34,794 bases of DNA from Octopus sinensis (taxonomy: Eukaryota), in NCBI RefSeq assembly GCF_006345805.1, contig NW_021835385.1, positions 1 to 34,794 on the forward strand. Direction: 5' to 3'. Shown one piece after another: positions 9,494-34,794 of the stretch. The first letter of the stretch is position 1. Each line of letters opens with the position of its first letter. The notes beneath the pieces are model-generated. The model did no database searches. It was not told the DNA's origin and saw nothing but the letters and a program-made list of their open reading frames with translations. The position numbers and the translations under genes were made by a program.

Positions 9494-10897
9494 GGTTTTA
9501 GTTGCCAATCCTGTAAAATACATTGTAGATATTTAGCTGGGCTAAAAAGTCACATTCGATCACAGCACCAGTAACAGTTAAGCTTCGTCCAATGGCCATA
9601 CTCGGTAACAAGGGGGCAGCCATAATAATACATGTATGTATTATGTATGTATGTATGTCATTATTCACTGTTATTTCAAGATTTCTTGGCAATAGAGGAG
9701 AGAGTTTCTATCCTACACCTACGGCTCCTTCATTGGAATTTCAACAACATCAATATTGCCATCATCTCGGAACTTTCTACCAACATATCCATGCATAGTC
9801 TTCTGTTTATAGATACTCATCCGTTCATCTAATGATACGTTGCGGTAGAGTCGTGCGACATCTTTGAGCATGTATTCTGTTATCAGATAAGGAATGTTGC
9901 TCAAGGAGCTGCCTTCCAAGTCATATGAATTATGCAAACTTGGTCAAAGGATGCACTTTGACATTTGTGGTTATAAGATGTTACCGAAAGGATATGATAC
10001 GACATTCAAAGACATTTTGCATCGATGTTAAGCCCCTGCCGCCTTGTTTTCGTTTTAAGGAGAGGGGGTCTACTTCACCGTTTATGTGGATATTATGTGT
10101 ACTTGTCAGTATTTTCCGGGTTTTCACATAAACAGCTCGGATCTCATCAAGTGTCCAATAAAGCAGCCCAAATGTCAGCATGAGTACTTGCACAGCAAAC
10201 ACGTTGTGGGCCAATGTTTTATTGAATGCATAGATTTCTGAGGTCGAAATTTTATTTATTCAGCTGTAATGTTCTTTGTTTATACTTTAATGACACCTGT
10301 AAGTTAATGGTACCTGTAAAAAAGCATTTGTTTTGTTACAGGTGCTGTTATGAGATATATTTTCAACCACCCCTAGATATCTGTAACATTCCTCTTCAGA
10401 TATAGGGGAAACAGTCAGGTCATTGATGTTGCTCGACTGGTTTACATTTTTCGCCCTTTTCACAACCATATAACATTTATCCTGAACAAACGCCAACCCC
10501 ACATTTTTTGAGAATGTTGTAACTTGGTCAAGGCTCTTTTTCATCTCATCCATATTCTTTGCATAAAGTTTTTAAGTCATCCACAAAGAAACAGCGTTCA
10601 ATTTTGTAATTTCTGTTTCCTTTTGAACCAATGAGATATCCTTAACATGAATGACATGAGGTTTACAGAAAGTATAAACAACATCATAACGAGGTTGTCC
10701 CCTTGGAATATGCCTTTGCGATATTGTATTCTGTCAGTGATAATAGTCACTCTTTGTGTTTAATTTCATGATGGTTGCCCACAATGGAATCAGGTCAGCT
10801 ATGGCTTTGATTATGGCTCACTGGAAATTTAGCAAGCTGAAGGACTTCTAGCATCCATGAGTATGTATGTATGTACGTATGTATGTATGTATGTATG

Positions 10898-13656: not shown

Positions 13657-15333
13657 GTTGATGGTTTGTGTGATACAGTTGAATCTATAAGTTCGTTGGA
13701 GAGAAGATGTGAATGTAAAGCGTGCGAATGGTAAAACGTTTATTCCTCATATCTTTATCTATAGTTTCCCTTTCATAAGACATGATATTGTAAGCTTCAG
13801 AGAATAACCCGGATTTTCTTAGTATTAATAATAAAAGAAAAGAAGAAACGAGAATTTTACTTACTTTGACATTGCGAATAATCCAGTATAGGTATTCGTT
13901 TCCCTGAGCCTTCCTGACACGTGCCAAAGACAGCAACAGTTCTGTTATAGACTTCTTTAATATACTTAACGAAGGCTGGCAAGTGACATCCACACCTCAT
14001 AAGGTTATTGTTTTTGAGGTTACTGTAATAATAAAGAGAACTCTGAATGCGTTTCAGATCAACAGAGAAATTCCTATGTGATTTGACAAGAAACAAAGAT
14101 TATAAAATTTGAGCAGGTTTATAAACGCTATGGCATTCATTTTTTTAAGTGTTGTTAATAACATCAATATTGCGAAATGGTTTCTAGTAGAAAGTGGAAG
14201 CACTAAGGTTCTATTCTCTTTTAGCTTAGATATTGAATAATAAGGTATCTTTAAATAAGATTACTAGCCACTTGAAACGATTCTATTTTATTGTAGTTTA
14301 GGGACATTTTAGTGTCGGGAATTTTGTAGTAGGGATCTTGCGCCGCTCTGTCTGAGAAAACTCATTTAGATGGGCGGCTTTGGCGCTAAGAAGGACATGT
14401 TTATTCTATGTAGCAACTGGTTTTAAAACTAGAGACGTACCAGCGCAGAAACTGAGAGATTACAGTGTTGTACATTTTATAGCTTCAGCGGTACAGACAT
14501 GTATAGTAATACTCCTAATTAAGAAGGGGAAAATTAATATTCAATTTTGATATATCAATTTGATATTTTCAGTCATAATAAATCTCTGAACGAGATGTAC
14601 AGTAACGGCTCGACAACGTAAAGTATAATAGCCATCTCAATATGGCTAACCACTAAGGGTGGGTGTTACTATAGCTTTTAATCCCAGGAGATCATCGTCA
14701 ACGCAGGGTATTCACCGGTTTACGATCGTAAACCAGTGATTGCCGTGCGTTGACAAGAGGCAAATACCTCGAAACTGCGGTCCGTGCGTATCACTTAGGC
14801 TTATGAGAGAGGGATGACCTCCCTTTGCAAATACCATAAGGGCACAGATAGTGTGCCTAAAGCCAGCTGGAGACGATGATCTCCTGGGGCTACAAGCTAC
14901 AGTAACACCCACCCTTAGTGGTTAGCCATATTGAGATGGCTATTATACAATATTTTCAGTGTTTTTAAAAAAGAGCAACAGCAAGAACAACAGCAACAAC
15001 ATCAACAAAAATACAACAAAAACAACAACAACAACAACAACAACAACAATAATAATAATAATTACACAACCATGACTATTTGAAGTGAGAAATAGAAGGT
15101 TGTTGACAATGAAGAGAGTAGATGTGATACCAATAGTAATTGGTACATTTGGAAGTATTAGCACTCAACTACTAGCATGACTGAAAACAATTGGTACAAG
15201 TGTGAAGGTAGAACACCTAAAAGAAATCAGTATTGCTTGGAACGCAAGAATTCTTCGTAGGGTTCTTGAAGTATAAACAGTAAACAAGTAACACTTTCCA
15301 TCAAACCCAGAAAAGTAAGCTGTGAGTTTTCAT

Positions 15334-16959: not shown

Positions 16960-18269
16960 TGTAAATATATATATATTAACACAGAAGAATGGAGATATCA
17001 TACATATTGAATCATCCCGTTTCTATCAGATTGGCAAATCGACCCTATAGTTACAGGGTGTTCTGTTTTCATGTTCTGAGTTCAACATTTCGAGGACGAT
17101 TTTGCCTTTCATCTTTTTGGGGTCAATGAATTAAGTACCAGCCGAGCACTAGGGTGGATGTAATCGACAAACCCCCAGCCACAAAATTGCAGGCCTTGTG
17201 CTTATCGTAGAAAGAATATTATACCAAATGGTTTCGTGGTAAAAATACAGAGGCAAATACAGCAGTCATCAGAGATATTTGAATGGAATTTTTGTGGATC
17301 TTATTCCTTCTGATAACTTCGTTGTCATAAGGATATAATAAGTAATAACAATATATATATGTGTGTGTGTATGCTTATGTATGCACATACGCACACACAC
17401 ACATGAATCTTTATATATGTGTGCATGTAGATTGGTATGTAGGCCACTCTCTCGACTCCAGTGAATTATGTGTATTTATAAACATGGGGTAAACTAGATC
17501 AAACCAACCATCTGATATTTGAACATAAACTTTTCGATAATAAAACACGGTGCTCGGAAATCATGTTGATCCACTGAAATTTAAATCAACTCATTGTTGT
17601 TTATTACCAACAACATTTAACGAGGAATTGAGAATTCGATGACCTAATTCTTATTATTTTCATTTTCCTATAAACAAAAAAAACTTGTTTGCTTATATTT
17701 CAACTATGCTGGTAAGGAATAAGAAAGCGCCATCTTCATATTTTTCTATGAGGTTGTTATGTAAATATCTGAAAAAGAGACAAATATTACACACTTTAAA
17801 ATAAGTAAAATTAAATAAATCTGTTTACTCTTGTTCAGTACTAAATTGCTTTTTAGTCAACACTAACAGGGTAAATGCTGATATTACACACTACAATTGT
17901 TTATTTCTCTTTATAGTTCTGTGGGAAGTGTTGTTTGAACAAGAATAGGTTCCTTCAATCTAACTTAATTATCCTAAAAGAAAACCTGATAACAAAACAG
18001 CAAAAGATGGAAGAGGATAAAATACAAAACTAACAAAATAACAAGGAGACTTTCTTATGTGCACAATATGGGTTTTAGGTAACATTCTCATCTATGGTAG
18101 AAATATCATTCACCATACAGGCAAGGTTCTGTGGCAGGAAAATTACTTCTCACATCCATGGATTCTTTAGTCCAACTGTGTGGCACATTGGACAAATAAC
18201 ATTTACTATAACCTTGGGTCAACTAAGCGTTGTGAGTAAATTTGCTGCAGGAAACTGTGTGGATTCCCT

Positions 18270-18361: not shown

Positions 18362-21300
18362 TGTGCTTGTCTTTGTGTTTATCCCCACCAACGCTTCAGA
18401 ACAAATATTGGTTTGTTTACGCCCCCCGTAACTTAGTGGTTCCGCAAAAGGTATCCGACTGATTAAGTGCCAGATTTTAAAAATTCAGTACTAAGGATGA
18501 TTTGTTCGAGGAATCGCTTAAAGCTACTGCTCCAGAATGGCCGCAATCTGATAACTGAAACAAAGAATAGTAAAAGTATATACTCCAGTAGCAGTGTAAT
18601 GATAAAAAAGGTTTTCAAAACAATAAAATAATAATTATTGCAATAACATTGACCATCATCAGGCTAGTACATAACTTTCAGAATCCTATTCAAAGTACAT
18701 AAAACAATGGTCACCTTTTGGTAGAAGATATATACTGGGTACCTATAAATTGACTTTACAATTTGAACACTTCAGAAGACAATGAAGAACAAGGATAGCT
18801 CATCAAACTTTATTGGAAATCATTGGCAAACAAATATCAGAAGCATTAGAACACTTCGACGTGGATTTAATTGTTACCAATTCTACGTCGCTAAAAGCCA
18901 CACTGCTTTTTTCTTGGTTGATTTTTATAACGGGATTTTTACTTAAAAATTTGATTAATCTACACATTTTTCTTTGGAAATAACTGAGATATTTTGATTC
19001 AAAGTCACTCTTTCGCCTTACGCTGCCATTTTTTACCTCAAAAACTTTGAAATAACTATTTTAAAGAATCAATTTACAATTATTTTAGCTCGAAATGTAG
19101 CTTACATCTCGATCATCATTGCCAAAACGATGCAATTAATTAGGTTGAGAACTGAATTACTAATTAAATCATGTAATAGGAGTGGAAGAGTTGCACTGTT
19201 GTTGGGGTGCCTAGTGGGATAATCTATAGTCACCTTGATACTTTGGTGGATGGAGTTGGCTACTTGCTGGATGCTCTCCATTATGTTCCTCTCAGTTTCT
19301 ACATTACCGTTATTAGATCTGGTCTTAACTGTGATATTATTGCCATCTATATACCTACAGTAAAGTAGAAGAGTTGTGGACTGTTTTGCCAAGGATTGCT
19401 TGGGTTTTCTGATCCACCAGGTCATGAAGAGGTCAGCAATATCTCCAGACACACCGACACAAATGGCTGCACCTTGAACTTACATGTATTGTTTCAAGCA
19501 TTTATCTTATGAAGGAAGACTGAAGACGCTCGACCTTTGTTCTCTCGAAAAACGACGACGCCGTGGTGATCTCATTCTTGCTCACTACATCATAGCGGAA
19601 AGTGTAACCTCTCGAAAGAGCTGTTCTTCACACCTGCCCCAGAGCGTCGGCTGCAGGGTCACTCCGGAAAGCTCTATCTACGACGATTTGATTTCAATCG
19701 GAGAGGGGCTTTCTCCGTCCGGGTTGCGGATCCGTGGAATAAGCTGCTGGACGAGATAGTGAAGATGCCGATGACCGTTCGGTTCAAAGTCTCTCTTCAC
19801 CAGAAATAGCCTGAACTCTTTGTATGACCACCCTCCCTGTACATAACTCCCTGTCCCCCTACATGGCCTTGATTTTGCTTTTTGAGCCAAAAATTTAAAC
19901 TAAACTAAACTAGTTATACTTTAGTCTGTGGTTCTTCAACGTGGTTCTTACGCTAGCTCCTACTGCATGTGCAATCATTCCTTTCTCCTAATTGTTGTTC
20001 TCAGGGTGTTGGGTGGGTAGGGTCCAGCCACACCAGCGCTCAGTGGTGCATTTATTTACTGCTGAAGTGATGGTGGGTGGTCTAAGCATCGGTGATCTAT
20101 CGAGGCAGAATATATAGTCTAAGAACGAGACACGGATCACGCGTGTTGACCTCACAGAACTACACTTCACTTTTCACAGACAATCTCATTACATTATACC
20201 CCAGAAAAATCGATGTCAACAGATGCGTAGAGGGAATCATGTCCTTAGTGTCCACTACACAACATGAGAAGAACTTGGAGTGGCCGCAAATATTCATTTA
20301 ATTGAGGATGTCCTCAGTGCTAACATAGAAGAATAAGAAGAAAAAGAAGTAGAAGATGAAGAAGAACAAGAACAAGAAGAAAAAGAAAAAGAAGAAGAAC
20401 AACCACAAAAGCAACAATAACAACACGGACAGAATAAAGTAAAAAAGAAAAGTAAAAAATGAAAAGTTGGAAAAACTATACGAAGAAGAGGAAAACAAAG
20501 AAGAAGAAGAAGAAGAAGAAGAAGAAAATGAAGAAAAGAAGAAAGAAAAGGAGGAAATAGGAAGAATATGAAGAAGTGGAGGTGGAAGAAGAAGAACAAC
20601 AACAACAAGAAGGGGAGGAGGAGGAAGCCGAGAAGGAAAAGAAAAAGAAGAAGGGGGAGGAGAAGGCAAAGACGAACAAGAATAAGGAGAAAAAGAGGGA
20701 GAAGTAGAAGAAAAAAGAAGGTGGAGGAAGAGAAAGATAAGAAGAAGCAGAAGCAGAAGAAGAACAAGAAGAAGAAAAGAAAGAAGAGGAAGAAGAAGGA
20801 GTAAAGAGAAAAAGAAGAAGAAGAAGAAGAAGAAAAAGAATTTGACGTTGAATGACAAAATCGAAACACGAAAGAGAATATTGAAATACGAAATGGAGGT
20901 GGATGCAAAATATAAAATAAAGGAATAATATAGTCACATTTCACACAGAACTACACTTATATATGAACATACACATATACTTCAGCTAAAAATATTTGGT
21001 GCAGACATGTAAACTCTCAAACGTTGCCATTTCTAATACAGATTCATATCAAAATCATTGAAATCTGGGGAAAAAAATGAGTTATTGAGATGCGAATTGA
21101 AACAAAGCAAATACAATAAAAGAACATTATATTTTTCCTATTATTTCACTTTCTTTCACATTGTCTCGCTCTCTCCGATTTTCTTTGTATCTTCCTAAAT
21201 CGTGTTCATTCTACAAATTTGAATTGATTTTGCCCGGAACAGTCTGAAAATTTATACATTTGTGAGCTTAATATCAGCATCAATTATTACTTTCGGAAAA

Positions 21301-24300
21301 TAGTATCAAGAAATTAAACGAACTTACAATTCTTTTAAATTCGAAAGCCCCGTGAATGTACCTTCTTTGATGGTTGCAATATTGTTGTCCGAAAGATCTC
21401 TATAGCAGTAAAGAAAGCGTGAAATAGATTATATGGAAAACATTTGTGATACGACATCAAACACTGTGACTTCAGAATGAAAGGAAGAAAAAGAAGAAGG
21501 ACGAGGAGGAGGAGGAGGAGAAGAAGAAGAACAAGAAGAAGAAGAAGAAGAAGAAGAAGACGGAATGCGGTATGCAAACTCACATCACACATATCCCACT
21601 CACCCTTGTGGAAACATGATCAGAGAGATTATTCATTTTATATCGCTTCATTGTCACAAGCATATTAGAAAACACACAGGAAATATATCTGCAGTTTAAT
21701 TGTATCAGGCCAAATATTCCAGCTTACAAGTACAGTAAGTATTTCAGGTTTACAGATAGAATGTATGTGACAATATTATTCGAATATATATTTTCCGCTT
21801 CCACTTCAGTTGCTCTATTACATAAATAACGTGAAGTGAATGACAAAATTCGAAGTTGAATGATAATATCGAAACACGAAGGAGAATATTGAATTAGGAA
21901 ATGGAGGAGGATGCAAAATATAAAATAAAGGAATAATATAGTCACATTTCACACAGAACTACACTTATATATGAACATACACATATACTTCAGCTAAAAA
22001 TATCTGATGCAAACATGTAAACTCACAAACGTTACCATTTCTAATACAGATTCATATCAAAATCATTGAAATTTGGGGAACAAAAATGAGTTATTGAGAT
22101 GTGAATTGAAACAAAGCAAATACAATAAAAGAACATTATATTTTTCCTATTATTTCACTTTCTCTCTCAAATTCTCTCTTTCTTTCACATTGTCTATCTC
22201 TCTCCGATTTTCTTTGTATCTTCCTAAATCGTGTTCATTCTTCAAATTTGAATTGATTTTGCCCGGAACAGTCTGAAAATTTATACATTTGTGAGCTTAA
22301 TATCAGCATCAATTATTACTTTCGGAAAATAGTATCAAGAAATTAAACGAACTTACAATTCTTTTAAATTCGAAAGCCCCATGAATGTACCTTCTTTGAT
22401 GGTTGCAATGTTGTTGTCCCAAAGATTTCTATAGCAGTAAAGAAAGCGTGAAATAGATTATATGGAAAACATTTGTGATACGACATCAAACACTGTGACT
22501 TCAGAATGAAAGGAAGAAAAAGAAGAAGGAGGAGGTGGAGGAGAAGAAGAAGAAGAAGAAGAAGAAGAAGAAGAAGAAGAAGAAGAAGAAGAAGAAGAAG
22601 AAGAAGAAGAAGACGGAATGCGGTATGCACACTCACATCACACATATTCCCACTCACCCTTGTGGAAATATGGTGAGAGAGATTATTTATTTCATATCGC
22701 TTCATTGTCACAAGCATATTAGAAAACACACAGGAAATATATCAGCAGTTTAATTGTATCAGGCCAAATATTCCAGCTTACAAGTACAGTAAGTATTTCA
22801 GGTTTACAGATAGAATGTATGTGACTATATTATTCGAATATATTTTCCGCTTCCACTTCAGTTGCTCTATTACATAAATACGGAAGTGAATGACAAAATT
22901 CGAAGTTGAATGATAATATCGAAACACGAAGGAGAATATTGAATTAGGAATGGAGGAGGATGCAAAATATAAAATAAAGGAATAATATAGTCACATTTCA
23001 CACAGAACTACACTTATATATGAACATACACATATACTTCAGCTAAAAATATCTGATGCAAACATGTAAACTCTCAAACGTTACCATTTCTAATACAGAT
23101 TCATATCAAAATCATTGAAATTTGGGGAACAAAAATGAGTTATTGAGATGCGAATTGAAACAAAGCAAATACAGTAAAAGAACGTTATATTTTTCCTATT
23201 ATTTCACTTTCTCTCTCAAATTCTCTCTTTCTTTCACATTGTCTCGCTCTCCCCGATTTTCTTTGTTTCTTCCTAAATCGTGTTCATTCTACAAATTTGA
23301 ATTGATTTTGCCCGGTACAGTCTGAAATTTTATACATTTGTGAGCTTAATATCAGCATCAATTATTACTTTCGGAAAATAGTATCAAGAAATTAAACGAA
23401 CTTACAATTCTTTTAAATTCGAAAGCCCCGTGAATGCACCTTCGTTGATGGTTGAAATGTCGTTCATCCAAAGATCTCTATAGCAGTAAAGAAAGTGTAA
23501 AATAGATTATATGGAAAACATTTGTGATACGACATCAAACACTGTGACTTCAGAATGAAAGGAAGAAAAAAGAAGGAGGAGGAGGAGGAGGAGGAGGAGG
23601 AGAAGAAGAAGAAGAAGAAGAAGAAGAAGAAGAAGAAGAAGAAGAAGACGGAATGCGGTATGCACACTCACATCACACATATTCCCACTCACCCTTGTGG
23701 AAATATGGTGAGAGAGATTATTTATTTCATATCGCTTCATTGTCACAAGCATATTAGAAAACACACAGGAAATATATCTGCAGTTTAATTGTATCAGGCC
23801 AAATATTCCAGCTTACAAGTACAGTAAGTATTTCAGGTTTACAGATAGAATGTATGTGACTATATTATTCGAATATATATTTTCCGCTTCCACTTCAGTT
23901 GCTCTATTACATAAATAACGTGAAGTGAATGACAAAATTCGAAGTTGAATGATAATATCGAAACACGAAGGAGAATATTGAATTAGGAAATGGAGGAGGA
24001 TGAAAAATATAAAATAAAGGAATAATATAGTCACATTTCACACAGAACTACACTTATATATGAACATACACATATACTTCAGCTAAAAATATCTGATGCA
24101 AACATGTAAACTCACAAACGTTATTATTTCTAATACAAATTCATATCAAAATCATTGAAATTTGGGGAACAAAAATGAGTTATTGAGATGCGAATTGAAA
24201 CAAAGCAACTACAATAAAGGAACATTATATTTTTCCTATTATTTCACTTTCTCTCTCAAATTCTCTCTCTTTCTTTCACATTGTCTCGCTCTCTCCGATT

Positions 24301-27300
24301 TTTTTTGTATCTTCCTAAATCGTGTTCATTCTACAAATTCGAATTGATTTTGTTTGGTGCAGTCTGAAAATTTATACATTTGTGAGCTTAATATCAGCAT
24401 CAATTATTACTTTCGGAAAATAGTATCGAGAAATTAAACGAACTTACAATCTCTCTAAATTCGAAAGCCCCGTGAAGAAACCTTCTTTGATGGTTGAAAT
24501 GTCGTTCTTCCAAAGATGTCTATAGCAGTAAAGAAAGTGTAAAATAGATTATATGGAAAACATTTGTGATACGACATCAAACACCGTGACTTCAGAATGA
24601 AAGGAAGAAAAAGAAGAAAGATAACGAAGAAGAAGAAGAAGAAAAAAAGAAGTAGAAGAAGAAGAAGAAGACGAAGAAAAGTAGGAAGAAGAAGGAGAAG
24701 AAGAAGATGGGGAAGAAGAAAAGAAGAAGAAGAAGAAGAAGAAGAGAAGAAGAAGACGAAGAAGTAGAAGAAGATTAAGAAGAGGAAGCAGAATAAGAAG
24801 GAGAGGGGGAGGAGATGGGGAGGGGCAGAGGAGGAGGAGAGATGGGGGTTTAGGAGGAGGACAAAGGAAAGAATGACTGAGGAGGGGCAGCTGGGGGTAT
24901 CAGCAGAAGGAGCAGGAAGAGCATGAGAATGAGAATAAGAGGAAGAATTGGCAGAGAATGGAAAAGAGGGAGACCAGTGACGAAGCAGAAAGTAAAGAGA
25001 AGAAAAAGAAGTAGAAATAGAAGAAAAAAGAGGAAGAAAAAGAAGAAGAAGACAAAGAAGAGGTAGAAAAATAAAAAGAAAAAAAAGGGGTAGAAGAAGA
25101 AGAAAAAGAAAAAGCGGAAAATGTGAAAAAGACGAAGGGGAGGAGAAAAAGACGTAGAAGGAAAACAAGTATCAGAATAAGAGAAGAAAAAAAGAAGAAG
25201 CAGAAGAAAAGAAACAAGGAGAAATAGTAGAAGAAGAGGAAGTTGAAGGAGAAAAAGAAGAAGGAGAAGAAGACGAAGAAGAAGACGAAGAAGAGGAGGA
25301 AGAAGAAGAATAAGAATAAGAAGAAGCAGAAGAAGAATAAGAATAAGAAGAAGAATAAGAAGAAGAAGAAAAAGAAGAAAAAAAGTAGATGAAAACGAAG
25401 AAAAAGAAGAAGAAAGAGAAGGAGAAAGAGAAGAAGAAGAAGAAGAAGAAGAAGAAGAAAAGAAGAAGAAGAAGAAGAAGAAGAAGAAGAAGAAGAAGAA
25501 GAAGAAGAAGAAGAAGAAGAAGAAGAAGAAGAAGAAGAAGAATATACATTGAAAATCCTGATGTTCAAGACGAAACAGAAAATGTTCTCAAAATATCAGG
25601 AAATAATTCAAGGATAGAGCGATAAATTTTGGGCGAGAAGACATTGCTGAAAAATCAGGGAATATACGGAATCAGAATTCAACATATTCAAATGCACTCA
25701 TACACATTCTTATATTCATAGTATCAACGACGGAATGCGGTATGCACACTCACATCACACATATTCCCACTCACGCTTGTGGAAATATGGTGAGAGAGAT
25801 TATTTATTTCATATCGCTTTATTGTCACAAGAATATTAGAAAACACACGCTTACAAGAAATATATCAGCAGTTTAATTGTATCAGGCCAAATATTCCAGC
25901 TTACAAGTACAGTAAGTATTTCAGGTTTACAGATAGAATATATGTGACTATATTCGAATATATATTTTCCGCTTCCACTTCAGTTGCTCTATTACATAAA
26001 TAACATGAAATGAATGACAAAATTCGAAGTTGATTGATAATATCGAAACACGAAGGAGAATATTGAAATACGAAATGGAGGAGGATGCAAAATATAAAAT
26101 AAAGAAATAATATAGTCACGATTTTCTTTGTATCTTCCTAAATCGTGTTCATTCTACATATTCGAATTGATTTTGTTTGGTGCAGTCTGAAATTTTATAC
26201 ATTTGTGAGCTTAATATCAGCATCAATTATTACTTTCGGAAAATAATATCAAGAAATTGAACGAACTTACAATGACTTTAAATTCGAAAGCCCCGTGAAT
26301 AAACCTTCTTTGATGGTTGAAATGCTGTTGGAACCAAGATATCTAAAGCAGTAAAGAAAGAGTAAAATAGATTATATGGAAAATATTTGTGATACGACAT
26401 CAAACACCGTGGCTTTAGTATGAAAGGATGAAAAAGAAGAAAGATAACGATGAAGAAGGAGGAGGAAGAGAAGAAGAAGAAGAAGAAGAAGAAGAAGAAG
26501 AAGAAGAAAAAAGAGGAAGAAGAAGGAGAATTGGGGAGAGTGGAGGAGGATGAGATGTGGGAGTTTAGGAGAGACAAAGGAACGCATGACTGAGGAAGGG
26601 CAGCGGGGGTATCAGCTGAAGTACATGAGAGCAGAGAATTAAAATAAAGAGAATCGGCAGAGAATGGAAAGAGGAGAACCATTGCCGAACAGAAAGTACA
26701 GAGAATAAAAGAGAAGAAAGAAGAAGAGGAAGAGAAGAAGAAGAAAGAAGAGAAGAGAAGAAAATAAGAAGAAGAGAAGAAGTAAAGAAGAAGACGAAAA
26801 AGAAGAAGCTGAGAGAATATTGCTGAAGAAGAAGATGAAAAAGAAGAAGCTGAAGAAGAAGATGCTGAAGAAGAAGATGCTGAGAAGAAGCTGAAGCAGA
26901 AGAAGCTGAAGAAGAAGAATGATGCAGAAGGGGAAGAAGAAGAAGGAGAAGAGAAGAAGAAGAAGAAGAAGAAGAAGAAAAACAAGGCGAAGGAGAAGAG
27001 AGAAGAAAAGGAGAAAAAGAAGAAGAGAAAAAGAAGAGAAGAAGAAGAAGAGAGAAGAAAAATAGAGAGAGAAGAAGAAGAAGAAGAAGAAGAAGAAGAG
27101 AAGAAGAAGAAGAAAGACAAATTATTAAATAATGGAATAATATAGTTACATCTCACACAGAACTACACTTAATATTGATAATACTCACATACTTCAGCTA
27201 AAAATATTTGATGCAAACATGTAAACTCTCAAACGTTGTCATTTCTAATACAAATTCAAATAAAAATCATTGAAATTTGAGGCTCAAATATGAGTTATGG

Positions 27301-28940
27301 TGACTGGAATTGAAACAAAGCAACTGCAATAAAGAAACATTAAATTTTTCCTATTATTTCACATTCTCTCTCAATTTCTCCCTCTTTCTCACTTTGTGTC
27401 TCGCTTTCTTTCTCCCTCTTTTTATCTTCTTAAGACGTGTTCATTTTACAAATTTGAATTGGTCTTGTTTAGTGCAATCTGAAAGAATATTGGGTAATGA
27501 GTGTATATATCAGCATCAATTATCACTTTCAAAAAATAGTAACAGGAAACTGAACGAACTCACAATATCGTCAAATTCGAAAGCATCGAGAATACACCTT
27601 CTGTGATGGTTGCAATGTTGTTCGAATGCAGATTTCTATAGCAGTAAAGAAAGAATAATGTAGATTATATGGAAAATATTTGTGATATGACATCAAACAC
27701 CGTGGCTTTAGAATGAAAGGAAGAAAAAGAAGAAAGATGACGATGAAGAAGAAGGAAGAGGAGAAGAAGAAGATGAAGAAGAAGAAGAAGAAAACGAAAG
27801 GGGAGGAGGGGAGGAGTGGAGGAAGAGGAGAAGTGATGATGGGGAGACATGGGAGGAGAAGGAATTGAGGTGAGGAGGAGGAGGAAGAGAGGGAAGGAGG
27901 AGGACAAGAGAGAAAGGAGGAGGAGGAGAGAGGAGGGGCAGAACCTGGAGGAGCAGGAGAAGTAGGTCAATGACAAAAAATAAAAGTAGAAAAAAGTGAA
28001 GAAAAAGAAATTAGGGGAATGATTTATGAAAGAGAAGAAGAAAAAGAAAAAGAGAAGACGAATAAGAAGTAGAAGAGGAGGAGAAGAATTAGAAGAAGAA
28101 GAAGAAGAAGAAGAAGAAGAGGAAAAATAGATGAAAAAGGAGAAGAACATAAGAAGAAGACGTGAAAGAAGTAGAAGAAGAAGTAGATAGAAGTAGAAGC
28201 GAGGAAGAAGAAGAAGTAGAAGAAGATGAAGAAGAAGAAGTTGAAAAAGAAGAAGAAGAGTAAAAGGCAGGAGAAAAAGGAAGAAAAGAAGAAGAAGAAA
28301 CGAGGAAAAAGAAGAAGAAGAAGACGAGGAAGAAGAAGATGAAGGAGAAGGAGAAAAAGAAGGAAGAGTTGAAGAAGAAGAAAAAGAAAAAAAGAAGAGA
28401 AAGTAGAAGAAGCAGGAGAAGAAGAAGAAGAAGAAGAAGAAGAAGAAGGCGAAGAAAAGGAGGAAGAAGAAGAAGAAAGAGACTTGGGGAGAGGTGGAGT
28501 AGGCGGAGGAGATTAGGAGGAGGATAAAGGAAGGGATGACTGTGGAGGGGCAGCTGGGGTATCAGGAGAGGGAGCAGGAAGAGCAGGAGAATGAGAATAA
28601 GAGGAAAAATTGGCAGAGAATGGAGAAGAGGGAGTCCAGTGACGAAAAAGTAGTAGTAGGAGGAGGAGCAGGAGGAGTGGAGGAGGAAGAAGAAGAAGAA
28701 AAACAAGAAGAGGAGAAGGAGAAGCAAGAAGAAGAAGAAGAAGAGAAGAAGAAGAGAAGTAGAAGCAGAAGAAGAAGAAGAAGAAGAAGAGCAAAGGGAA
28801 TAGAAGAAGAAGAAGAAGAAAAGAAGAAGGAGAAGAAGAAGAAGAAGGAGAGAAGAAGAAGAAGAAAAGAAGGAGAAGAGAAGAAGAAGAAGAAAAGAAG
28901 AAAAAGAGAAGAAGAAGAAGAAGAAGAAAAGAAGAAGAAG

Positions 28941-28972
<32 letters not shown>

Positions 28973-31900
28973 GAAGAATAGCCAAATTATTAAATAAAGG
29001 AATAATATAGTCACATCTCACAGAACTACACTTAGATATTGATATACTCACATACTTCAGCTAAAAATATTTGATGCAAACATGTAAACTCTCAAACGTT
29101 TCCATTTCTAATACAAATTCAAATAAAAATCATTGAAATTTGAGGCTCAAATATGAGTTATGGTGACTGGAATTAAAACAAAGCAACTGCAATAAAGAAA
29201 CATTAAATTTTTCCTATTATTTCACATTCTCTCTCAATTTCTCCCTCTTTCTCACTTTGTGTCTCGCTTTCTTACTCCCTCTTTTTATCTTCTTAAGACG
29301 TGTTCATTTTACAAATTTGAATTGATCTTGTTTAGTGCAATCTGAAAGATTATTGGGTAATGAGTGTATATATCAGCATCAATTATCACTTTCAAAAAAT
29401 AGTAACAAGAAACTGAACGAACTCACAATATCGTCAAATTCGAAAACCCCGAGAATCACCTTCTGTGATGGTTGCAATGTTGTTCCGTTGCAGATATCTA
29501 TAGCAGTAAAGAAAGAATAATGTAGATTATATGGAAAATATTTGTGATACGACATCAAACACCGTGGCTTTAGAATGAAAGGAAGAAAAAGAAGAAAGAT
29601 AACGATGAAGAAGAAGAAGGAGGAGGAGGAGGAGAAGAAGAAGAAGATGAAGAAGAAGAAGAAGAAAGGGGAGGATGAGAGGAGGGCGAGAGATGGGAGG
29701 AGAAGGAAGAGATGGTGAGGAGGAGGAGGAGGAGGAGGAAGATAGAGGAAGAGGAGGGAAAGAGAGAGAGGAGGCGGAGGAGGAGAGAGGAGTGGCAGGA
29801 CCTGGAGGAGCAGGAGAAGTAGGTCATTCAGATTAAGTAAAAGAAGTAGAAATAAGTGAAGAAGAAAGTACGGGAATGATTATGAAAGAGAAGAAGAAGA
29901 AGAAGAAGAAGAAGAAGAAGAAGAAACGAAGAGGAGAAGGAGAATTAGAATTAGAAGAAGAAGAAGAAGAAGAAGAAGAAGAAGAAGAAGAAAAAGAAAA
30001 ATAAGAGGAAGAAGAAGAGGGAGAAGAAGAAGAAATTAATTTTATGGAAATGCGGATAAATAACTGCCAGTCGTTGTCATGTCCAGACACATTCAAAGCG
30101 TCGATATATTAAGGAAATACTAAAAAATGTTCTTGTTCAGAAGATTATATGAAGCAGGAAGCAACGTTGCTTAATTTAACATCGTATGTAATTGCGACGA
30201 AATATTGAATAATATTCATTATGTGAAGAAAAAATTTTTATGGAAATATAACGAAGAAAAGAAGAAGAAGAAGAAGAAGAAGAAGAAGAAGAAGAAGAAA
30301 AGGAAGGAAACGAAGAAAAAGGAGTAGAAAGAGAAGGAAGAGAAGAAGAAGAAAAAGAAAAAAGAAGAAGAAAGAGAAGAAAAAGAAGAAAGAGAAGAAG
30401 AAGAAGGAAAGAACGAAAACTACAACAACAATAACAAAAAATTTATTTCGGTGGAAGTGTGGATAAATAACCACACGGCACCACAGAATCAAGAGAACAA
30501 TGTGTAACAAAATAGTAGCTAAAACTTATATTAATAGTGCAGATACATACATACATATGAACATACACATATATATTTTCAGGAATAACATTTTTATGCA
30601 GACAATTATCAATTGACAGTCATTGACATGTTCTGACTAAATCAAATAAATATAACACGAATATGAGAACTGAATATGATTTACAGTAATAGAGAGTGAG
30701 AAAACATGGAAATAAGGGGATATTAAATTTAAAGACAAAGTATATTCCTCATGTATAAACGACAACATTGAAAGAACTTACAATATCTCTAAGTTGTGAA
30801 GGCCTTGAAACATCTCTTTTTCAATCCTTGAAATCTTATTGTTGTGAAGATATCTGAAGCAGGAAACAATATTGGTTAGATTGACATAGTGTGAATTGCA
30901 ATAACATATTCAATATTGTTCTTTATGAAAAGGGACAAAATTATAGGAAAATAATAAAAGAAGAAAAAGATAAGAAGAAGAAAAAGGAGGAGGAGGAGGA
31001 GAAGTATAGGAAGAAGTAGAAAGTAGAAGAAGAAGAAGAAAAGAAGAAGAAGAAGAAGAAAGGAAAGAAGTAGAAGGAATAGAAGAAGAAGAAAAAGAAA
31101 AAGAAGGAGGAAGACGAGCAGGAGAAGAAGAAGAAGAAGAAGAAGGAGAAGAAGAAAAAGATGAAAAAGAAGAAAAAGGAGCAGAAGGTGGGTTGCTGAG
31201 GAGGGAGAATTACAAGAAGAAAAAGGTGAAGGAGGGGGAGTGAGAGGAGGAGGAAGAGAATTACAAGAAGAAAATCATGAGGAAGAAAAAGAAAAAAATA
31301 GAAGGGGGAGGAGGAGGAGGGGTGGAATAGAAGAAAAAGTAGAAGAGAAGAAAAAGTAGGAGGAGGACGAGGAGGAACAGGAGAAAGAAGAAGAAGAAGA
31401 AGAAGATAAAGGAGAAGCGGATAAAGAAGAAGGAGGAGTAGCAGAAGAAGAAGAAGAAGATAAAGAAGAAGAAAAAGAAGAAGAAAAAGAATAGGAAGAA
31501 GAAAAATGAAAAAGATGTAGAAAAAGAAGAAGAGAAGAAAAAGTAGGAGGAGGAGCAGGAGGAGTGGAGGAGTGGGGGAGGAAGAAGAAGAAGAAGAAGA
31601 AGAAGAAGAAGAAAAAGAAGAAGAATAAGAAGAAGAAGAAGAAGAAGGGGAAGAAGGAGAAATAGAATAGGAAGAAGTAAACAGAAAAAGAAGTAAAAAG
31701 AAGAAGAAGAAGAAGGAGTTAGAAGAAGAAAAGAAGAAGAAGAAGAAAAATTGAAGAAGAATTTGAAGAAAAAGAAGAAGGAGGAGGAGAAGAAGAAAAA
31801 GAATTCGAAGTTGAATGATGATATCGAAACACGAAGGAGAATATTGAAATACGAAATGGAGGAGGATGCAAAATATAAAATAAAGGAATAATATAGCCAC

Positions 31901-32533
31901 ATTTCACACAGAACTACACTTATATATGAACATACACATATACTTCAGCTAAAAATATTTGGTGCAAATATGCAAACTCTCAAACGTTGCCATTTCTAAT
32001 ACAAATTCATATCAAAATCATTGAAATTTGGGGAAAAAATGAGTTATTGAGATGCGAATTGAAACAAAGCAAATACAATAAAGGAACATTATATTTTTCC
32101 TATTATTTCACTTTCTCTCTCAAATTCTCTCTCTTTCTTTCACATTGTCTCGCTCTCTCCGATTCTCTTTGTATCTTCCTAAATCGTGTTCATTCTACAA
32201 ATTTGAATTGATTTTGCCCGGTACAGTCTGAAATTTTATACATTTGTGAGCTTAATATCAGCATCAATTATTACTTTCGGAAAATAGTATCAAGAAATTA
32301 AAAAAACTTACAATCCTTTTAAATTCGAAAGTCCCGTGAATGCCCCTTCATTGATGGTTGCAATGTTGTTCCTATACAGTTCTCTATAGCAGTAAAGAAA
32401 GAGTAAAATAGATTATATGGAAAACATTTGTAATACGACATCAAACAATGTGACATCAGAATGAAAGGAAGGAAAAGGAGAAAAATAACGAAGAAGAAGA
32501 AGGAGTTGGAGGAGAAGTGGAAGAAGAACAAAG

Positions 32534-32564
<31 letters not shown>

Positions 32565-33540
32565 GAAGAAGAAGAACGTAGAAGAAGAAGAAAGAAGAAG
32601 AAGAAGAAGTAGAAGAAGAAGAAGAAAGTAGAATAAGAAGAAAAACAACAAGAAGATGAAGGAGGGGAAGAAGAAATTGGAGAATATGAAGAAAAAGAAG
32701 GAGGAGAATTGGGGAGGAGGTGGAGGAGGTGGAGGAGGAGGGTGGGGAGTTTAGGAGGAGGACAAAGGAAGGAATGACTGAGGAGGGGCACCTGGGGGTA
32801 GCAGCTGAAGTACATGAAGAGCAGGAGAATTAAATAAGAGAAAGAATCGGCAGAGAATGGAAAAGAGGGAGACCAGTGACGAAGCAGAAAGTACAGAGAA
32901 GTAAAAGAAGAAAAAGAAGAAGAGAAGAAGAAGATGAGAAGAAGAAGAAGAAGAAGAAGAAGAGAAGAAGAAGAAAAAGAAGAAGAAGAAGAAAAGAAGA
33001 AGAAGAAGAAGAAGAAGAAAAGACAAATTATTAAATAATGGAATAATATAGTCACATCTCACACAGAACTACACTTAGATATTGATATACTCACATACTT
33101 CAGCTAAAAATATTTGATGCAAACATGTAAACTCTCAAACGTTGCCATTTCTAATACAAATTCAAATAAAAATCATTGAAATTTGAGGCTCAAATATGAG
33201 TTATGGTGACTGGAATTGAAACAAAGCAACTGCAATAAAGAAACATTAAATTTTTCCTATTATTTCACATTCTCTCTCAATTTCTCCCTCTTTCTCACTT
33301 TGTGACTCGCTTTCTTACTCCCTCTTTTTATCTTCTTAAGACGTGTTCATTTTACAAATTTAATTGGTCTTGTTTAGAGTGCAATCTGAAAGATTATTGG
33401 GTAATGAGTGTTATATCAGCATCAATTATCACTTTCAAAAATAGTAACAGGAAACTGAACGAACTCACAATATCGTCAAATTCGAAAGCAATCGAGAATA
33501 CACCTCTGTGATGGTTGCAATGTTGTTCGAATGCAGATTT
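5612..33540 (-). CDS. Multi-exon gene (5' end outside window): tandem LRRs + LRR-CT + Ly6/uPAR-like Cys-rich domain; extracellular receptor-like protein
   Basis: Manually spliced GT-AG exons with compatible phases: LRR exons (2/2) -> 14022-13865 (2/1) -> 8944-8853 (1/0) -> 6902-6719 (0/1) -> 5694-5612 (1/0). Each LRR-LRR junction codon TT|A gives the consensus Leu. No signal peptide or TM segment seen in the window. Confidence 0.88.
6185..6435 (-). mobile_element. R4/Dong-like LINE fragment
   Basis: RVSKILVRKLNAWNIISAINSYAV...ELDRKSRKVLSMYGSNHP. Confidence 0.75.
6719..6902 (-). CDS. Cys-rich exon 2: PVCRFAISMNGTKLKTERSCSTYRKCVEAMINNTLTCNKRTNSTSCTGCCVGHLCNKNDFI(G)
   Basis: tattattacag|CCT...ATT G|gtaagt; 184 nt, phase 0/1; ends in the CC-x4-CN hallmark of three-finger domains. 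Confidence 0.92.
8500..8630 (+). mobile_element. Old degenerate copy of the same SINE family
   Basis: gttgcgtccttgaacaaggcacttcatttcactttgtcccagtc resembles the core of the 206-552 SINE. Confidence 0.55.
8853..8944 (-). CDS. Cys-rich exon 1: (N)YSLFQRNLQCQTCSGITCNDSKVTSCPEAE
   Basis: attctgtag|AT...GAG|gtaaac; 92 nt, phase 1/0; LxCxxC start typical of Ly6/uPAR domains. Confidence 0.9.
9700..10860 (-). mobile_element. Decayed R4/Dong-like non-LTR retrotransposon RT region
   Basis: SWMLEVLQLAKFP, GIFQGD, YRYLG, AVQVLMLTFGLLYW...KTRKILT...LKRKQGGRGL with stops and frameshifts. Confidence 0.85.
10860..11182. repeat. (TATG)n microsatellite
   Basis: Direct inspection; a shorter tract lies at ~9439-9492. 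Confidence 0.95.
12371..12579 (+). mobile_element. Octopus OR-type SINE with target-site duplication
   Basis: aggcggcaagctggcagaaacgttaac...gttcaaattcc...ggggtcgatccaatcgac...ccttgtgcctagagtagcaaagaatatt; tagatggctt(t/c)ca at 12358-12370 and 12580-12592. Confidence 0.85.
13865..14022 (-). CDS. Last LRR + LRR C-terminal cap exon: NLKNNNLMRCGCHLPAFVKYIKEVYNRTVAVFGTCQEGSGKRIPILDYSQCQ
   Basis: ttattattacag|T...CAA A|gtaagt; 158 nt, phase 2/1; CxC...C...C LRR-CT pattern. Confidence 0.92.
14623..14948. mobile_element. Small inverted-repeat element (77-bp arms 14623-14699 / 14872-14948), probably a Penelope-like terminal remnant
   Basis: gtataatagccatctcaatatggctaaccactaagggtgggtgttac... and its reverse complement; internal hammerhead-like motif. 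Confidence 0.7.
14767..14813 (+). ncRNA. Degenerate minimal type II hammerhead-like motif
   Basis: ccuc-GAAAC-ugcg-GUC-...-CUUAUGA-gagagg; core CUGAUGA carries a G>U change; short near-palindromic stem III. Confidence 0.45.
15068..15276 (+). mobile_element. R4/Dong-like LINE C-terminal fragment
   Basis: MKRVDVIPIVIGTFG...ARILRRVLEV*. Confidence 0.7.
15334..15530. repeat. (ATG)n followed by (GGA)n microsatellite
   Basis: Direct inspection. Confidence 0.95.
15540..15720 (+). mobile_element. R4/Dong-like LINE fragment (post-RT region)
   Basis: MHGQFERNKQDVKDNTASWAWLERGDLKRTTESLIIVA*DQALAT. Confidence 0.75.
17030..17222 (+). mobile_element. Degenerate copy of the 12371 SINE family
   Basis: gttctgagttcaac...ttttgcctttcatc...ggccttgtgcttatcgtagaaagaatatt. 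Confidence 0.7.
17697..17768 (-). CDS. Terminal-type LRR exon K, 72 nt: YLHNNLIEKYEDGAFLFLTSIVE(I); donor is AT rather than GT
   Basis: Strong acceptor tgtctctttttcag|A and an open LRR frame, but followed by ataagc instead of gtaagc. Confidence 0.7.
18115..18576 (+). mobile_element. Degenerate octopus SINE with internal (TA)n microsatellite
   Basis: tRNA-like head, then (TA)n, then cccccgtaacttagtggttccgcaaaag...gctccagaatggccgcaatc...actgaaacaa; recognised from recall of this family. Confidence 0.7.
18760..18837 (-). pseudogene. Decayed LRR pseudo-exon: YLFANDFQ*SLMSYPCSSLSSEVFK(L)
   Basis: Acceptor reads gcttctg (compare gcttcag of exon H); starts A TAT TTG, ends AAA TT|gtaaag; in-frame stop. 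Confidence 0.45.
19195..20325 (-). mobile_element. Decayed Penelope-like reverse transcriptase fragment, interrupted by a CR1-like insertion
   Basis: Motifs across frameshifts: STEDIL...LYASVDIDF...RPPTIT...MIAHAVGASVRTTLKNH | VQGAAICVGVSGDIADLFMTWW...RYIDG...VANSIHQSIKVTIDYP. Confidence 0.75.
19488..19912 (+). mobile_element. CR1-like LINE 3' fragment
   Basis: LSYEGRLKTLDLCSLEKRRRRGDLI...GHSGKL...FSVRVADPWNKL, followed by a (taaac)n tail. Confidence 0.88.
21328..21399 (-). CDS. LRR exon A, 72 nt: DLSDNNIATIKEGTFTGLSNLKE(L)
   Basis: ctatag|A GAT CTT TCG GAC AAC...GAA TT|gtaagt. Confidence 0.92.
21728..21814 (-). other. Atypical LRR-like candidate exon, 87 nt: ATEVEAENIYSNNIVTYILSVNLKYLLY(L); copies at 22782-22866 (85 nt), 23817-23903 (87 nt), 25905-25988 (84 nt)
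   Basis: taatag|A...TAC TT|gtaagc, phase 2/2, partial LRR pattern (IxxNNI...NLxxLxxL). May be a decayed pseudo-exon. Confidence 0.45.
22357..22428 (-). CDS. LRR exon B, 72 nt: NLWDNNIATIKEGTFMGLSNLKE(L)
   Basis: ctatag|A AAT CTT TGG GAC AAC...GAA TT|gtaagt. Confidence 0.92.
23406..23477 (-). CDS. LRR exon C, 72 nt: DLWMNDISTINEGAFTGLSNLKE(L)
   Basis: ctatag|A GAT CTT TGG ATG AAC...GAA TT|gtaagt. Confidence 0.92.
24448..24519 (-). CDS. LRR exon D, 72 nt: HLWKNDISTIKEGFFTGLSNLER(L)
   Basis: ctatag|A CAT CTT TGG AAG AAC...AGA TT|gtaagt. Confidence 0.92.
26271..26342 (-). CDS. LRR exon E, 72 nt: YLGSNSISTIKEGLFTGLSNLKS(L)
   Basis: ctgctttag|A TAT CTT GGT TCC AAC...TCA TT|gtaagt. Confidence 0.92.
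27564..27635 (-). CDS. LRR exon F, 72 nt: NLHSNNIATITEGVFSMLSNLTI(L)
   Basis: ctatag|A AAT CTG CAT TCG AAC...ATA TT|gtgagt. Confidence 0.92.
29427..29497 (-). pseudogene. LRR exon G, 71 nt with a 1-nt deletion: YLQRNNIATITEG-/-FSGFSNLTI(L)
   Basis: Splice sites intact (ctatag / gtgagt) but GGT GA TTC versus GGT GTA TTC in exon F. Either a real frameshift or a sequencing indel. Confidence 0.75.
30782..30853 (-). CDS. LRR exon H (divergent type), 72 nt: YLHNNKISRIEKEMFQGLHNLEI(L)
   Basis: cctgcttcag|A TAT CTT CAC AAC AAT...ATA TT|gtaagt; its flanks differ from those of the main repeat unit. Confidence 0.92.
32312..32383 (-). CDS. LRR exon I, 72 nt: ELYRNNIATINEGAFTGLSNLKG(L)
   Basis: ctgctatag|A GAA CTG TAT AGG AAC...GGA TT|gtaagt; typical-type LRR consensus. 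Confidence 0.92.
33469..33540 (-). CDS. LRR exon J, 72 nt: NLHSNNIATITEVYSRLLSNLTI(L)
   Basis: ctgctatag|A...TT|gtgagt. Nearly identical to exon F but with a compensated -1/+1 indel (EGVFSM -> EVYSRL). Confidence 0.8.
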
Positions 33541-34794
33541 CTATAGCAGTAAAGAAAGAATAATGCAGATTATATGGAAAATATTTGTGATACGACATGA
33601 AACAAGGTGGTTTTAGAACGAAAGGAAGAAAAAGAAGAGAGATAACGAAGAAGAAGAAGAAGGAGGAGGAGGAGAAGAAGAAGAAGAAGAAGAAGAAGAA
33701 GAAGAAGAAGAAAGTAGAAGAAGAAAAAAAAGAGAAAAGAAGAAGAAGAAGAAGGAGAGAAAGAAGAAGAAGAAGAAGGAGGGGAAGAAGAAGAAGAAGA
33801 AGAAGAAGAAGAAGAGAAAGGAGTAGCAGAAGAAGAAGGTATAGAAGAAGAAAAAGAAGAAAATGACGAAGAAGTAGAAGAAGAAAAAGAAGAAGAGTTA
33901 GACGGCGTAGAAGATGAAGATTAGAACAAGAAGAAGCAGAAGAAGTAGAAGAAGAAGAAGAAGAAGAAGAAGAAGAAGAAGACGTTGAAGAAGAAGTAGA
34001 AGAAGGCGACGAAGAAGAAGAAAAAGAAAAAGGGAGGAGGGGAGAAGTGGAGGAGGAGGAGAAGTGATGATGGGGAGAGATGGGAGGAGAAGGAAGAGAG
34101 GTGGGGAGGAGGAGGAGGAGAGAGTATGAGAGAGTAGGGGCAGGACCTGGAGGAGCAGGAGAAGTAGGTCAATGAGAATAAATAAATGAAGTACAAAAAA
34201 GTGAACAAAAAGAAAGTATGGGAATGATTTATGAAAGAGAAGAAGAAAAAGAAAAAGAAGAAGAAGACGAAGAAGTGGACGAGGAGGAGTAGAATTAGAA
34301 GAAAAAAAGGAAGAAGAAGAAGTAGAAGGAGAAGAAGAAGAAGAAGAAAAGAAGAAGAAGAAGAAGAGGAAGAATGAGATGAGAAGAAGAAGAAAAAGAA
34401 GAAGAGGAAAAAGAAGTTGAAGAAGAAGAAAAGAAGAAGATGTAGAAGAAGAAGAAGAAGAAAGGAGGAGAAGAAGAAGAAGAAGCAGAAGAAGACGAGG
34501 AAGAAGAAGGAGAAGAACAAAAACTACAACAACAATAACAAAAATTTTATTTCGGTGGAAGTGTGGATAAATAACCACACGGCACCACAGAATCAAGAGA
34601 ACAATGTGTAACAAAATAGTAGCTAAAACTTATATTAATAGTGCAGATACATACATACATATGAACATACACATATATATTTTCAGGAATAACATTTTTA
34701 TGCAGACAATTATCAATTGACAGTCATTGACATGTTCAGACTCAATCAAATAAATATAACACGAATATGAGAACTGAATATGGTTTACGTAATA

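What the first reader, a model, noticed from the sequence alone, without database searches (positions are those of the whole stretch)
20326..34520. Strand-asymmetric (GAA)n tracts sit at a near-fixed distance before every LRR exon
Seen: each unit has a polypurine tract on the + strand, from ~85 bp to over 1.2 kb. In the pre-mRNA it is a (UUC)n tract ending ~75-80 nt upstream of the acceptor (~95 nt for exon H). Length and sequence vary greatly while the flanks are conserved. Established: GAA/TTC tracts form triplex DNA and R-loops and are recombinogenic; GA microsatellites flank the diversified sea-urchin Sp185/333 (SpTransformer) immune genes; long UC-rich tracts bind PTB-type splicing regulators. 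Inference: the tracts may drive exon shuffling or tune exon inclusion.
Basis: partly seen in the sequence, partly recalled or inferred. Interest (0 to 1): 0.72.

Follow-up and report, generated by a model that had tools for sequence, protein, structure and literature searches.

The report
Inherited GAA spacers between octopus exons
In an octopus receptor gene each small repeat exon has a long GAA-repeat stretch about 74 bases away; the fixed spacing is likely just inherited from one copied unit, and although such a stretch served as the joint in at least one exon duplication, sister genes without these stretches have equally long exon arrays.

Summary
The pattern is real. Ten of the 11 single-LRR exons in the window have a (TTC)n-rich tract ending 73-79 nt before the acceptor; the terminal LRR exon does not (2,558 nt). 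In close paralogs, 96 of 113 internal exons show 72-79 nt, against 4 tracts in 200 kb of background. The gene belongs to the octopus LRR adhesion-GPCR expansion. Fixed distance and strand are best explained by descent: exon, flanks and tract were copied as one cassette, so the copies are not independent. Tracts do recombine: one exon duplication has its junction inside a tract, seen in two contigs. But they were not detectably hotter per base than unique intron in three tests. Arrays of 19 and 15 internal exons exist without GAA tracts, with similar variability at the binding-face codons. Tract length did not track exon inclusion in a weak isoform test. Verdict: inherited microsatellite spacers (55% of intron DNA) acting as frame-neutral joints, not a shown shuffling device or splicing code.

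The parts
33615..34523 (-). (TTC)n-rich tract, edge 74 nt before exon 33540
33469..33540 (-). A-type 72-nt LRR exon; middle looks shifted by compensating indels, possibly consensus errors
32458..33023 (-). tract, 74 nt before exon 32383
32312..32383 (-). A-type LRR exon
30927..31803 (-). tract, 73 nt before the H exon; joins an A-type donor flank to an H-type acceptor flank
30782..30853 (-). H-type LRR exon (second cassette type, about 44% different from A exons)
29572..30406 (-). two-piece tract, 74 nt before exon 29497
29427..29497 (-). A-type LRR exon, 71 nt as assembled (frameshift or error)
27710..28978 (-). longest tract (1,269 nt), 74 nt before exon 27635
27564..27635 (-). A-type LRR exon
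   Evidence: joint 26342/27564 in a presumed RNA run
26422..27117 (-). tract, 79 nt before exon 26342
26271..26342 (-). A-type LRR exon
24594..25542 (-). tract, 74 nt before exon 24519; holds a pure run of 27 units
24448..24519 (-). A-type LRR exon
23552..23653 (-). short tract (102 nt), 74 nt before exon 23477
23406..23477 (-). A-type LRR exon
22503..22618 (-). short tract (116 nt), 74 nt before exon 22428
22357..22428 (-). A-type LRR exon
21474..21565 (-). short tract (92 nt), 74 nt before exon 21399
21328..21399 (-). last A-type LRR exon
20327..20840 (-). tract closing the array; not near an acceptor (2,558 nt)
17697..17768 (-). terminal LRR exon (type T), no nearby tract; donor reads AT instead of GT
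13865..14022 (-). LRR C-terminal cap exon
   Evidence: boundaries read
8853..8944 (-). first exon of the Cys-rich domain
   Evidence: sequence matches proteins; boundaries read
6719..6902 (-). second exon of the Cys-rich domain (three-finger-like motif, recalled; no Pfam hit)

Best explanation
The tracts are microsatellite spacers between single-LRR exon cassettes of an octopus adhesion-GPCR-family gene, and their fixed distance and strand are likely inherited from one ancestral cassette rather than set independently before each exon. Shown: each cassette is a ~74-nt acceptor flank, a 72-nt exon and a 360- or 990-nt donor flank, bounded by tracts that fill 55% of intron DNA; one single-exon duplication has its junction inside a tract. 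Inferred: the array grows and reorders by unequal exchange and conversion anywhere along the cassette. The tracts take a share of breakpoints roughly in proportion to their length. They matter most where they are the main shared sequence, namely on both sides of one exon and between the diverged A and H cassettes. Breaks there leave splice sites and reading frame intact. The tract cannot move much closer because the branch-point and acceptor region must survive (inferred).
For: Flanks between tract and acceptor are homologous: p-distance 0.10 (A) and 0.075 (H). 12 of 23 internal flanks of distant paralogs align to the A flank at z>=3, against 0 of 7 terminal flanks. Tract state clusters on the gene tree (GAA label 2 changes, shuffled mean 6.5). 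Distant paralogs keep a decayed C-rich, G-poor zone at the same place (23 of 23 internal exons, 0 of 7 terminal). Linkage across a tract is r 0.35-0.40, against 0.32-0.36 across unique flank. Pair persistence drops across tracts about as their greater length predicts. By my manual count there are 11 internal deletions and about 8 tract-anchored truncations; the uniform null gives a tract-anchored share of 0.27-0.59 and the observed share is 0.42. Arrays without GAA tracts: 19 internal exons on C2 and 15 on C27, with variable-codon diversity 0.83 and 0.67 against 0.58-0.88 in nine GAA genes. A tract chimera is seen in two contigs.
Against: In all six persistence comparisons survival across a tract was lower than within the cassette; a modest per-base excess cannot be excluded with so few, related pairs. 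The type of the next cassette looks randomised against the last 400 nt of the donor flank (10 changes, shuffled 11.7), so re-pairing at or near tracts is frequent. A and H flanks differ by about 40% yet keep 74 and 73 nt, and a single-pair test of their homology was weak (z 1.2). Many young, still homogeneous arrays carry pure tracts, but this is essentially one lineage. The C2 control array is older (blocks 91-95% identical).
Confidence: 0.68

Rival explanations
1. The tracts are selected fragile sites: triplex or RNA-stabilised H-DNA breaks in them start repair that duplicates, deletes and swaps LRR cassettes, and selection keeps them to diversify a recognition receptor.
For: Tract-tract chimera at a duplicated exon. 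A C10 duplication with one end in a tract and a short shared sequence at the junction. At least 4 A/H re-pairings forced by well-supported branches. Transcribed (TTC)100 expands in yeast and RNase H loss raises the rate (PMC5909440, passages). STRs sit at duplication and deletion edges of Sp185/333 genes (PMC5103432, abstract and section 17).
Against: No per-base enrichment in three tests (with 82). Long arrays without GAA tracts, one holding five 4.3-kb copies at 98-99% identity. Two A/H chimeras were formed in unique flank. Pure runs are at most 27 units. 15 of 20 tract pairs in near-identical copies agree in length within 6%.
Confidence: 0.13
2. The (UUC)n RNA is a splicing silencer: it is dense in UCUU, would bind a PTB-type protein upstream of the branch point, and would make each internal exon skippable, so that transcripts carry different LRR subsets.
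For: 12-22 UCUU per 100 nt of tract (that UCUU is a PTB site is recalled, with only a search listing). Annotated isoforms skip whole LRR exons: 13 models for one paralog, 7 for another. The tract marks internal but not terminal exons. Orientation is 118 to 0 inside arrays.
Against: Inclusion in the 13 models did not follow upstream tract length (rho -0.14, P 0.67, 11 exons; the models are a poor proxy). The distant-branch-point version fails for most exons: the first upstream AG lies within 80 nt in 105 of 113, and contigs of presumed RNA runs use the annotated acceptors. One-way orientation needs no selection if inherited.
Confidence: 0.14
3. Tract lengths and unit copies are largely long-read assembly artefacts.
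For: Several exons carry 1-2 nt indels that look like consensus errors. The window is an unplaced contig.
Against: Independent contigs of near-identical copies give similar tract lengths (15 of 20 within 6%) and the same chimeric tract. Units differ at many sites. Proteins labelled Octopus vulgaris hold matching exons. Spliced joints match three predicted introns.
Confidence: 0.03

Closest known systems
Octopus-specific adhesion GPCR expansion, group 3 (Ritschard et al. 2019, PMC6408891; passages read)
   Same: Full-length relatives carry LRR, GPS/GAIN and 7tm_2 domains; all hits of the Cys-rich exon are Octopus proteins. The paper reports LRRs in 5 of 22 group 3 sequences.
   Different: The passages seen do not describe exon cassettes, intronic tracts or splicing. 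The window's nearest protein (P0006) ends without GPS or 7TM. I did not place the gene on that paper's tree.
Ectocarpus ROCO LRR exon shuffling (Zambounis et al., PMC3341825; passages read)
   Same: One LRR per 72-nt exon, variable exon number, intra- and intergenic recombination, selection on the concave face.
   Different: The word microsatellite does not occur in that paper (0 hits). It reports inverted intronic LRR exons; I scanned both strands of the close paralogs and found exons on one strand per region.
Tetrahymena 90-bp LRR exon arrays (Xiong et al., PMC6564038; passages read)
   Same: Uniform LRR exons with phase 2 introns; unequal crossing over; an intronic repeat (REP retrotransposon) proposed as extra recombination substrate.
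   Different: The intronic repeat here is a simple-sequence tract at a fixed place in the cassette, exons are 72 nt, and the family has tens rather than thousands of genes.
Sp185/333 (SpTransformer) STR-flanked genes (Oren et al., PMC5103432; abstract and section 17 read)
   Same: Purine-rich STRs at edges of duplicated or deleted units of a diversified family; mechanism proposed, not shown.
   Different: There the STRs flank whole genes and occur in both orientations; here they lie inside introns, bound single exons and have one orientation.
Prunus Ma TIR-NBS-LRR genes (PMC6141779; passages read)
   Same: Sizeable intronic microsatellites upstream of each repeated exon; the authors leave open whether this is a by-product or affects splicing.
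   Different: A plant resistance gene; the repeated exons encode post-LRR domains, not single LRRs.

Membership tests
Octopus LRR adhesion GPCRs (group 3 of PMC6408891) | GPS motif and secretin-type 7TM domain | tested here: inconclusive
   Present in close relatives P0015 and P0030; absent from the nearest protein P0006; the window ends before the 3' exons.
Octopus LRR adhesion GPCRs (group 3 of PMC6408891) | Homology of the ectodomain to these receptors | tested here: met
   The Cys-rich exon is 69-100% identical to 30 Octopus proteins, several with GPS and 7tm_2.
Octopus LRR adhesion GPCRs (group 3 of PMC6408891) | Placement in the group 3 clade of the 7TM tree | not tested
   No 7TM tree was built.
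Single-LRR-exon shuffling arrays (Ectocarpus ROCO type) | One LRR per frame-preserving exon, variable number and order among paralogs | tested here: met
   72-nt exons; A/H order and number differ among 21 regions.
Single-LRR-exon shuffling arrays (Ectocarpus ROCO type) | Diversification concentrated on the concave face | tested here: met
   Four codons have pN 0.58 vs pS 0.38 (62 A exons) and 0.45 vs 0.04 (22 H exons) (the codons were chosen for variability, so the figure is biased upward). Strands of the model fall across the splice junctions.
Single-LRR-exon shuffling arrays (Ectocarpus ROCO type) | Somatic rearrangement or immune function | not testable with these tools
   Needs single-cell DNA and challenge experiments.
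STR-driven instability loci (Sp185/333 model) | STRs at edges of duplicated or deleted units | tested here: met
   Chimeric tract at a duplicated exon; one end of a C10 duplication.
STR-driven instability loci (Sp185/333 model) | Breakpoints enriched in the STR beyond its length share | tested here: not met
   with 82; power is low.
STR-driven instability loci (Sp185/333 model) | Expansion depends on the STR | tested here: not met
   Arrays of 19 and 15 internal exons without GAA tracts.
Distant-branch-point exons (PMC1431707; passages read) | Long AG exclusion zone reaching the pyrimidine tract | tested here: not met
   105 of 113 exons have an AG within 80 nt; 6 of 113 have 150 nt or more, two of them in the window.
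PTB-repressed cassette exons | PTB binding and inclusion that depends on the tract | tested here: inconclusive
   UCUU-dense; no trend in annotated isoforms; binding not testable here.

The most novel reading that the evidence does not exclude
In the youngest octopus LRR-receptor subfamily the (TTC)n tracts are maintained parts of a diversity generator: as DNA they are universal joints that let diverged LRR cassettes be copied singly and re-ordered, and as UCUU-rich RNA they make each cassette skippable. Because the variable binding strand is built across each splice junction, every new order or skip makes a new binding face, a Dscam- or VLR-like repertoire built from a microsatellite.
Probability: 0.15. 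Interest if true: 0.8.

Novelty: new variant of a known kind. Interest (0 to 1): 0.42.

Why it matters
If the best explanation holds, this is a clean natural test of the idea that repeats beside immune-type genes drive their diversification: the same family offers arrays with pure, decayed and no tracts, and the repeat turns out to be a passenger that hosts some breakpoints. It also shows why a fixed position in a tandem array is weak evidence of function. If the novel case holds, a simple repeat would serve as both recombination joint and splicing signal for a combinatorial receptor repertoire in a mollusc. I found no paper on these tracts in searches (open-access library only).

Tried and rejected
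Independent placement of tracts before each exon: rejected, the flanks are homologous. Distant branch point upstream of the tract: rejected for 105 of 113 exons. A conserved decoy AG just after the tract: present in most A and H flanks of the window but not seen throughout distant paralogs. Automatic mapping of homology-block ends was not counted: overlapping windows self-aligned, and fast tract turnover mimics breakpoints. The island map of tracts showed shared modules but did not place breakpoints. No RNA holder was listed on record; runs X6, X15 and X20 are guessed to be RNA, hold contigs only and include paralog sequence, so they show joints but not inclusion levels. The AT donor of the terminal exon was not settled: all laid DNA contigs read GT, but they carry other paralog-like differences. 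The structure model was unreliable for the Cys-rich domain (pLDDT under 50) and no fold search was run; Pfam gave no hit for that exon. The (GAA)12C count (1,349 sites) gives only a rough background. Look-ups of earlier findings near the window, by sequence and by tract words found nothing. Other cephalopod genomes could not be read. Supplements of the cited papers were not opened; the supplementary tables of PMC6408891 may bear on group membership.

Full report
What the window is. The window is the whole contig G000:C11856 of a 2.72-Gb genome. A minus-strand gene has ten array exons of one LRR each (33540 to 21328; nine 72 nt, one 71 nt as assembled), a terminal LRR exon at 17768-17697, an LRR cap exon and two Cys-rich exons. 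The second Cys-rich exon finds 30 proteins among 31 candidates, all labelled Octopus. Full-length relatives carry LRR, GPS/GAIN and 7tm_2 domains. This fits the octopus-specific adhesion GPCR expansion, group 3 of PMC6408891 (passages), though I did not test tree placement. Contigs of a run guessed to be RNA join three predicted introns at or within 2 nt of their predicted ends; paralog sequence is mixed in.

The observation. All ten array exons have a tract edge 73-79 nt before the acceptor; the terminal exon is 2,558 nt from one. I fetched 20 further regions of close paralogs and found 154 exons in all, window included. Five regions that nearly duplicate others (C11815, C8846, C6381, C29e, C10618) were dropped for counts. 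Of the remaining 113 internal exons, 96 have the edge at 72-79 nt and 111 within 120 nt; the 10 measurable terminal exons are 946-2,674 nt away. Inside arrays there are 118 TTC-sense and 0 GAA-sense tracts in 220 kb; downstream of the terminal exon there are none in 113 kb; upstream there are 18 and 0 in 149 kb. Twenty background loci hold 4 tracts in 199,900 nt. The pattern is real, but 'every LRR exon' is wrong.

Why distance and strand are fixed. There are two cassette types. A has a 74-nt acceptor flank and a ~990-nt donor flank; H has 73 nt and ~360 nt. Acceptor flanks differ by 0.10 within A, 0.075 within H and 0.40 between them; a single-pair shuffle test of A against H gave only z 1.2. 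In six distant paralogs, 23 of 23 internal exons keep a C-rich, G-poor zone 100-330 nt upstream, mostly decayed TCA/TCC/TTC repeats, and 0 of 7 terminal exons do. Twelve of those 23 flanks align to the A flank at z>=3. On a tree of 21 terminal exons with flanks the GAA state needs 2 changes against a shuffled mean of 6.5; the deeper branches are weak. The simplest reading is one old repeat in an ancestral internal cassette, copied with it, decayed in some lineages and long and GAA-rich in the youngest.

Do tracts drive shuffling? For: a 530-nt tract between two identical exons on C29 matches the 5' part of the next tract over about 480 nt (95% identity; 97% in the duplicate contig) and ends like the previous tract, so the junction of this single-exon duplication lies in the tract. 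A 2.1-kb duplication on C10 starts inside a tract and ends in unique sequence. On a tree of the last 400 nt of 40 full A donor flanks, the type of the next cassette changes 10 times (shuffled mean 11.7; 88 of 500 shuffles as low; at least 4 forced by starred branches). That places frequent re-pairing in the tract or in the flank just before it.

Against: distance matrices on either side of a tract correlate at r 0.40 (25 units) and 0.35-0.38 (23 units), against 0.33 and 0.32-0.36 between the two ends of the unique flank; for 21 H units the values are 0.70 and 0.79. Among 48 A units, near-identical pairs persisted less across a tract than within the cassette in all six comparisons (for example 8 of 18 against 12 of 18), but the intervals were about 1,440 and 640 nt, so the rate per base is similar. 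By manual count there are 11 deletions wholly inside unique flank and about 8 truncations anchored in a tract; uniform placement predicts a share of 0.27-0.59 and the observed share is 0.42. Two A/H chimeras formed in unique flank. An exon of a protein labelled Octopus vulgaris looks like a hybrid of two window exons, so exchange also occurs inside exons. These tests have low power and related rows.

The control. Following earlier finding e1-8831139 I located a paralog on C2. It has 19 internal exons, none with a tract closer than 2.2 kb, and repeated blocks at 91-95% identity. A paralog on C27 has 15 internal exons and no TTC tract in 60 kb; 12 of the 15 keep only a decayed TCA-rich zone, yet it holds five 4.3-kb copies at 98-99% identity. 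A C9 paralog has 4 detected internal exons and no tract. Amino-acid diversity at the four variable codons is 0.83 (C2), 0.67 (C27) and 0.75 (C9), against 0.58-0.88 in nine tract-bearing genes. GAA tracts are therefore not needed for long, variable arrays. The C2 array is older, so equal present-day rates are not shown.

Splicing. Annotated isoforms skip whole LRR exons: 13 models for the C10451 gene, 7 for a C25 gene. Inclusion in the 13 models did not follow upstream tract length (rho -0.14, P 0.67, 11 exons), but such models are a poor measure. The tracts hold 12-22 UCUU per 100 nt, a PTB site by recall, so silencing remains possible. The distant-branch-point model of PMC1431707 (passages) fails for 105 of 113 exons. 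The transcript carries UUC; PMC5909440 (passages) states that R-loops were not detected in vitro for this orientation, while expansions in yeast still rose.

What is under selection. Exons differ more than their flanks (0.21 against 0.065-0.10). Four codons (1, 3, 4 and 23 of the exon) carry most of it, with pN above pS (chosen after seeing the variability). In 26 pairs of near-identical copies these codons differ at 6 of 312 sites against 44 of 16,090 non-coding sites. In the model the strand of each repeat spans the splice junction, so a skip or re-ordering would create a new strand. Earlier findings of this scan already describe this exon variability.

Comparison and verdict. The array works like the single-LRR-exon arrays of Ectocarpus ROCO genes (PMC3341825, passages) and Tetrahymena (PMC6564038, passages). 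The repeat placement recalls Sp185/333 (PMC5103432, abstract and section 17) and Prunus Ma (PMC6141779, passages). PMC11378527 was seen as a listing only. Searches returned nothing on these tracts. The tracts are best read as inherited spacers that host breakpoints without causing them: a new variant of a known kind, interest 0.42, with a 15% chance of the bolder reading.

Noticed in passing
window 21328-33540 and paralog arrays: Four codons at the two ends of each exon are hypervariable while introns are conserved; the strand they form spans the splice junction, so exon skipping would build new binding faces.
   Followed up: yes
window 17697-17768: The terminal LRR exon has an AT donor; the matching proteins labelled Octopus vulgaris go straight from the last array exon to the cap exon, so the exon may be lost in this gene.
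   Followed up: partly
paralog arrays on C29, C5, C25, C1, C10451: H cassettes are almost never adjacent: 1 H-H pair against 7.4 in within-gene shuffles (P 0.0002). This may reflect an ancestral A-H dimer or a structural constraint.
   Followed up: partly
proteins P0006, P0011, P0016, P0020, P0023: Many family members end without GPS or 7TM domains and would be secreted or shed LRR proteins.
   Followed up: no
window 32458-33023 and 33615-34523: Two exons have AG-free zones of 394 and 606 nt that run into the tract and are candidates for a distant branch point.
   Followed up: no
window 2064-2911 and 3652-4460: An inverted duplication of about 850 nt at 94% identity, rich in (TA)n/(CA)n, around a short inverted core.
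   Followed up: no
window about 6200-6480, 9800-10800 and 19450-19900: Stretches that look like retrotransposon fragments by eye; the last has very high depth in the DNA run.
   Followed up: no
L135-L137 (G000:C27:9330001-9360000): Five 4.3-kb copies of one LRR cassette at 98-99% identity, each containing a 760-nt internal repeat; a very recent expansion or an assembly artefact.
   Followed up: partly
proteins P0002 and P0004: The Cys-rich domain itself is repeated two or three times in some paralogs.
   Followed up: no
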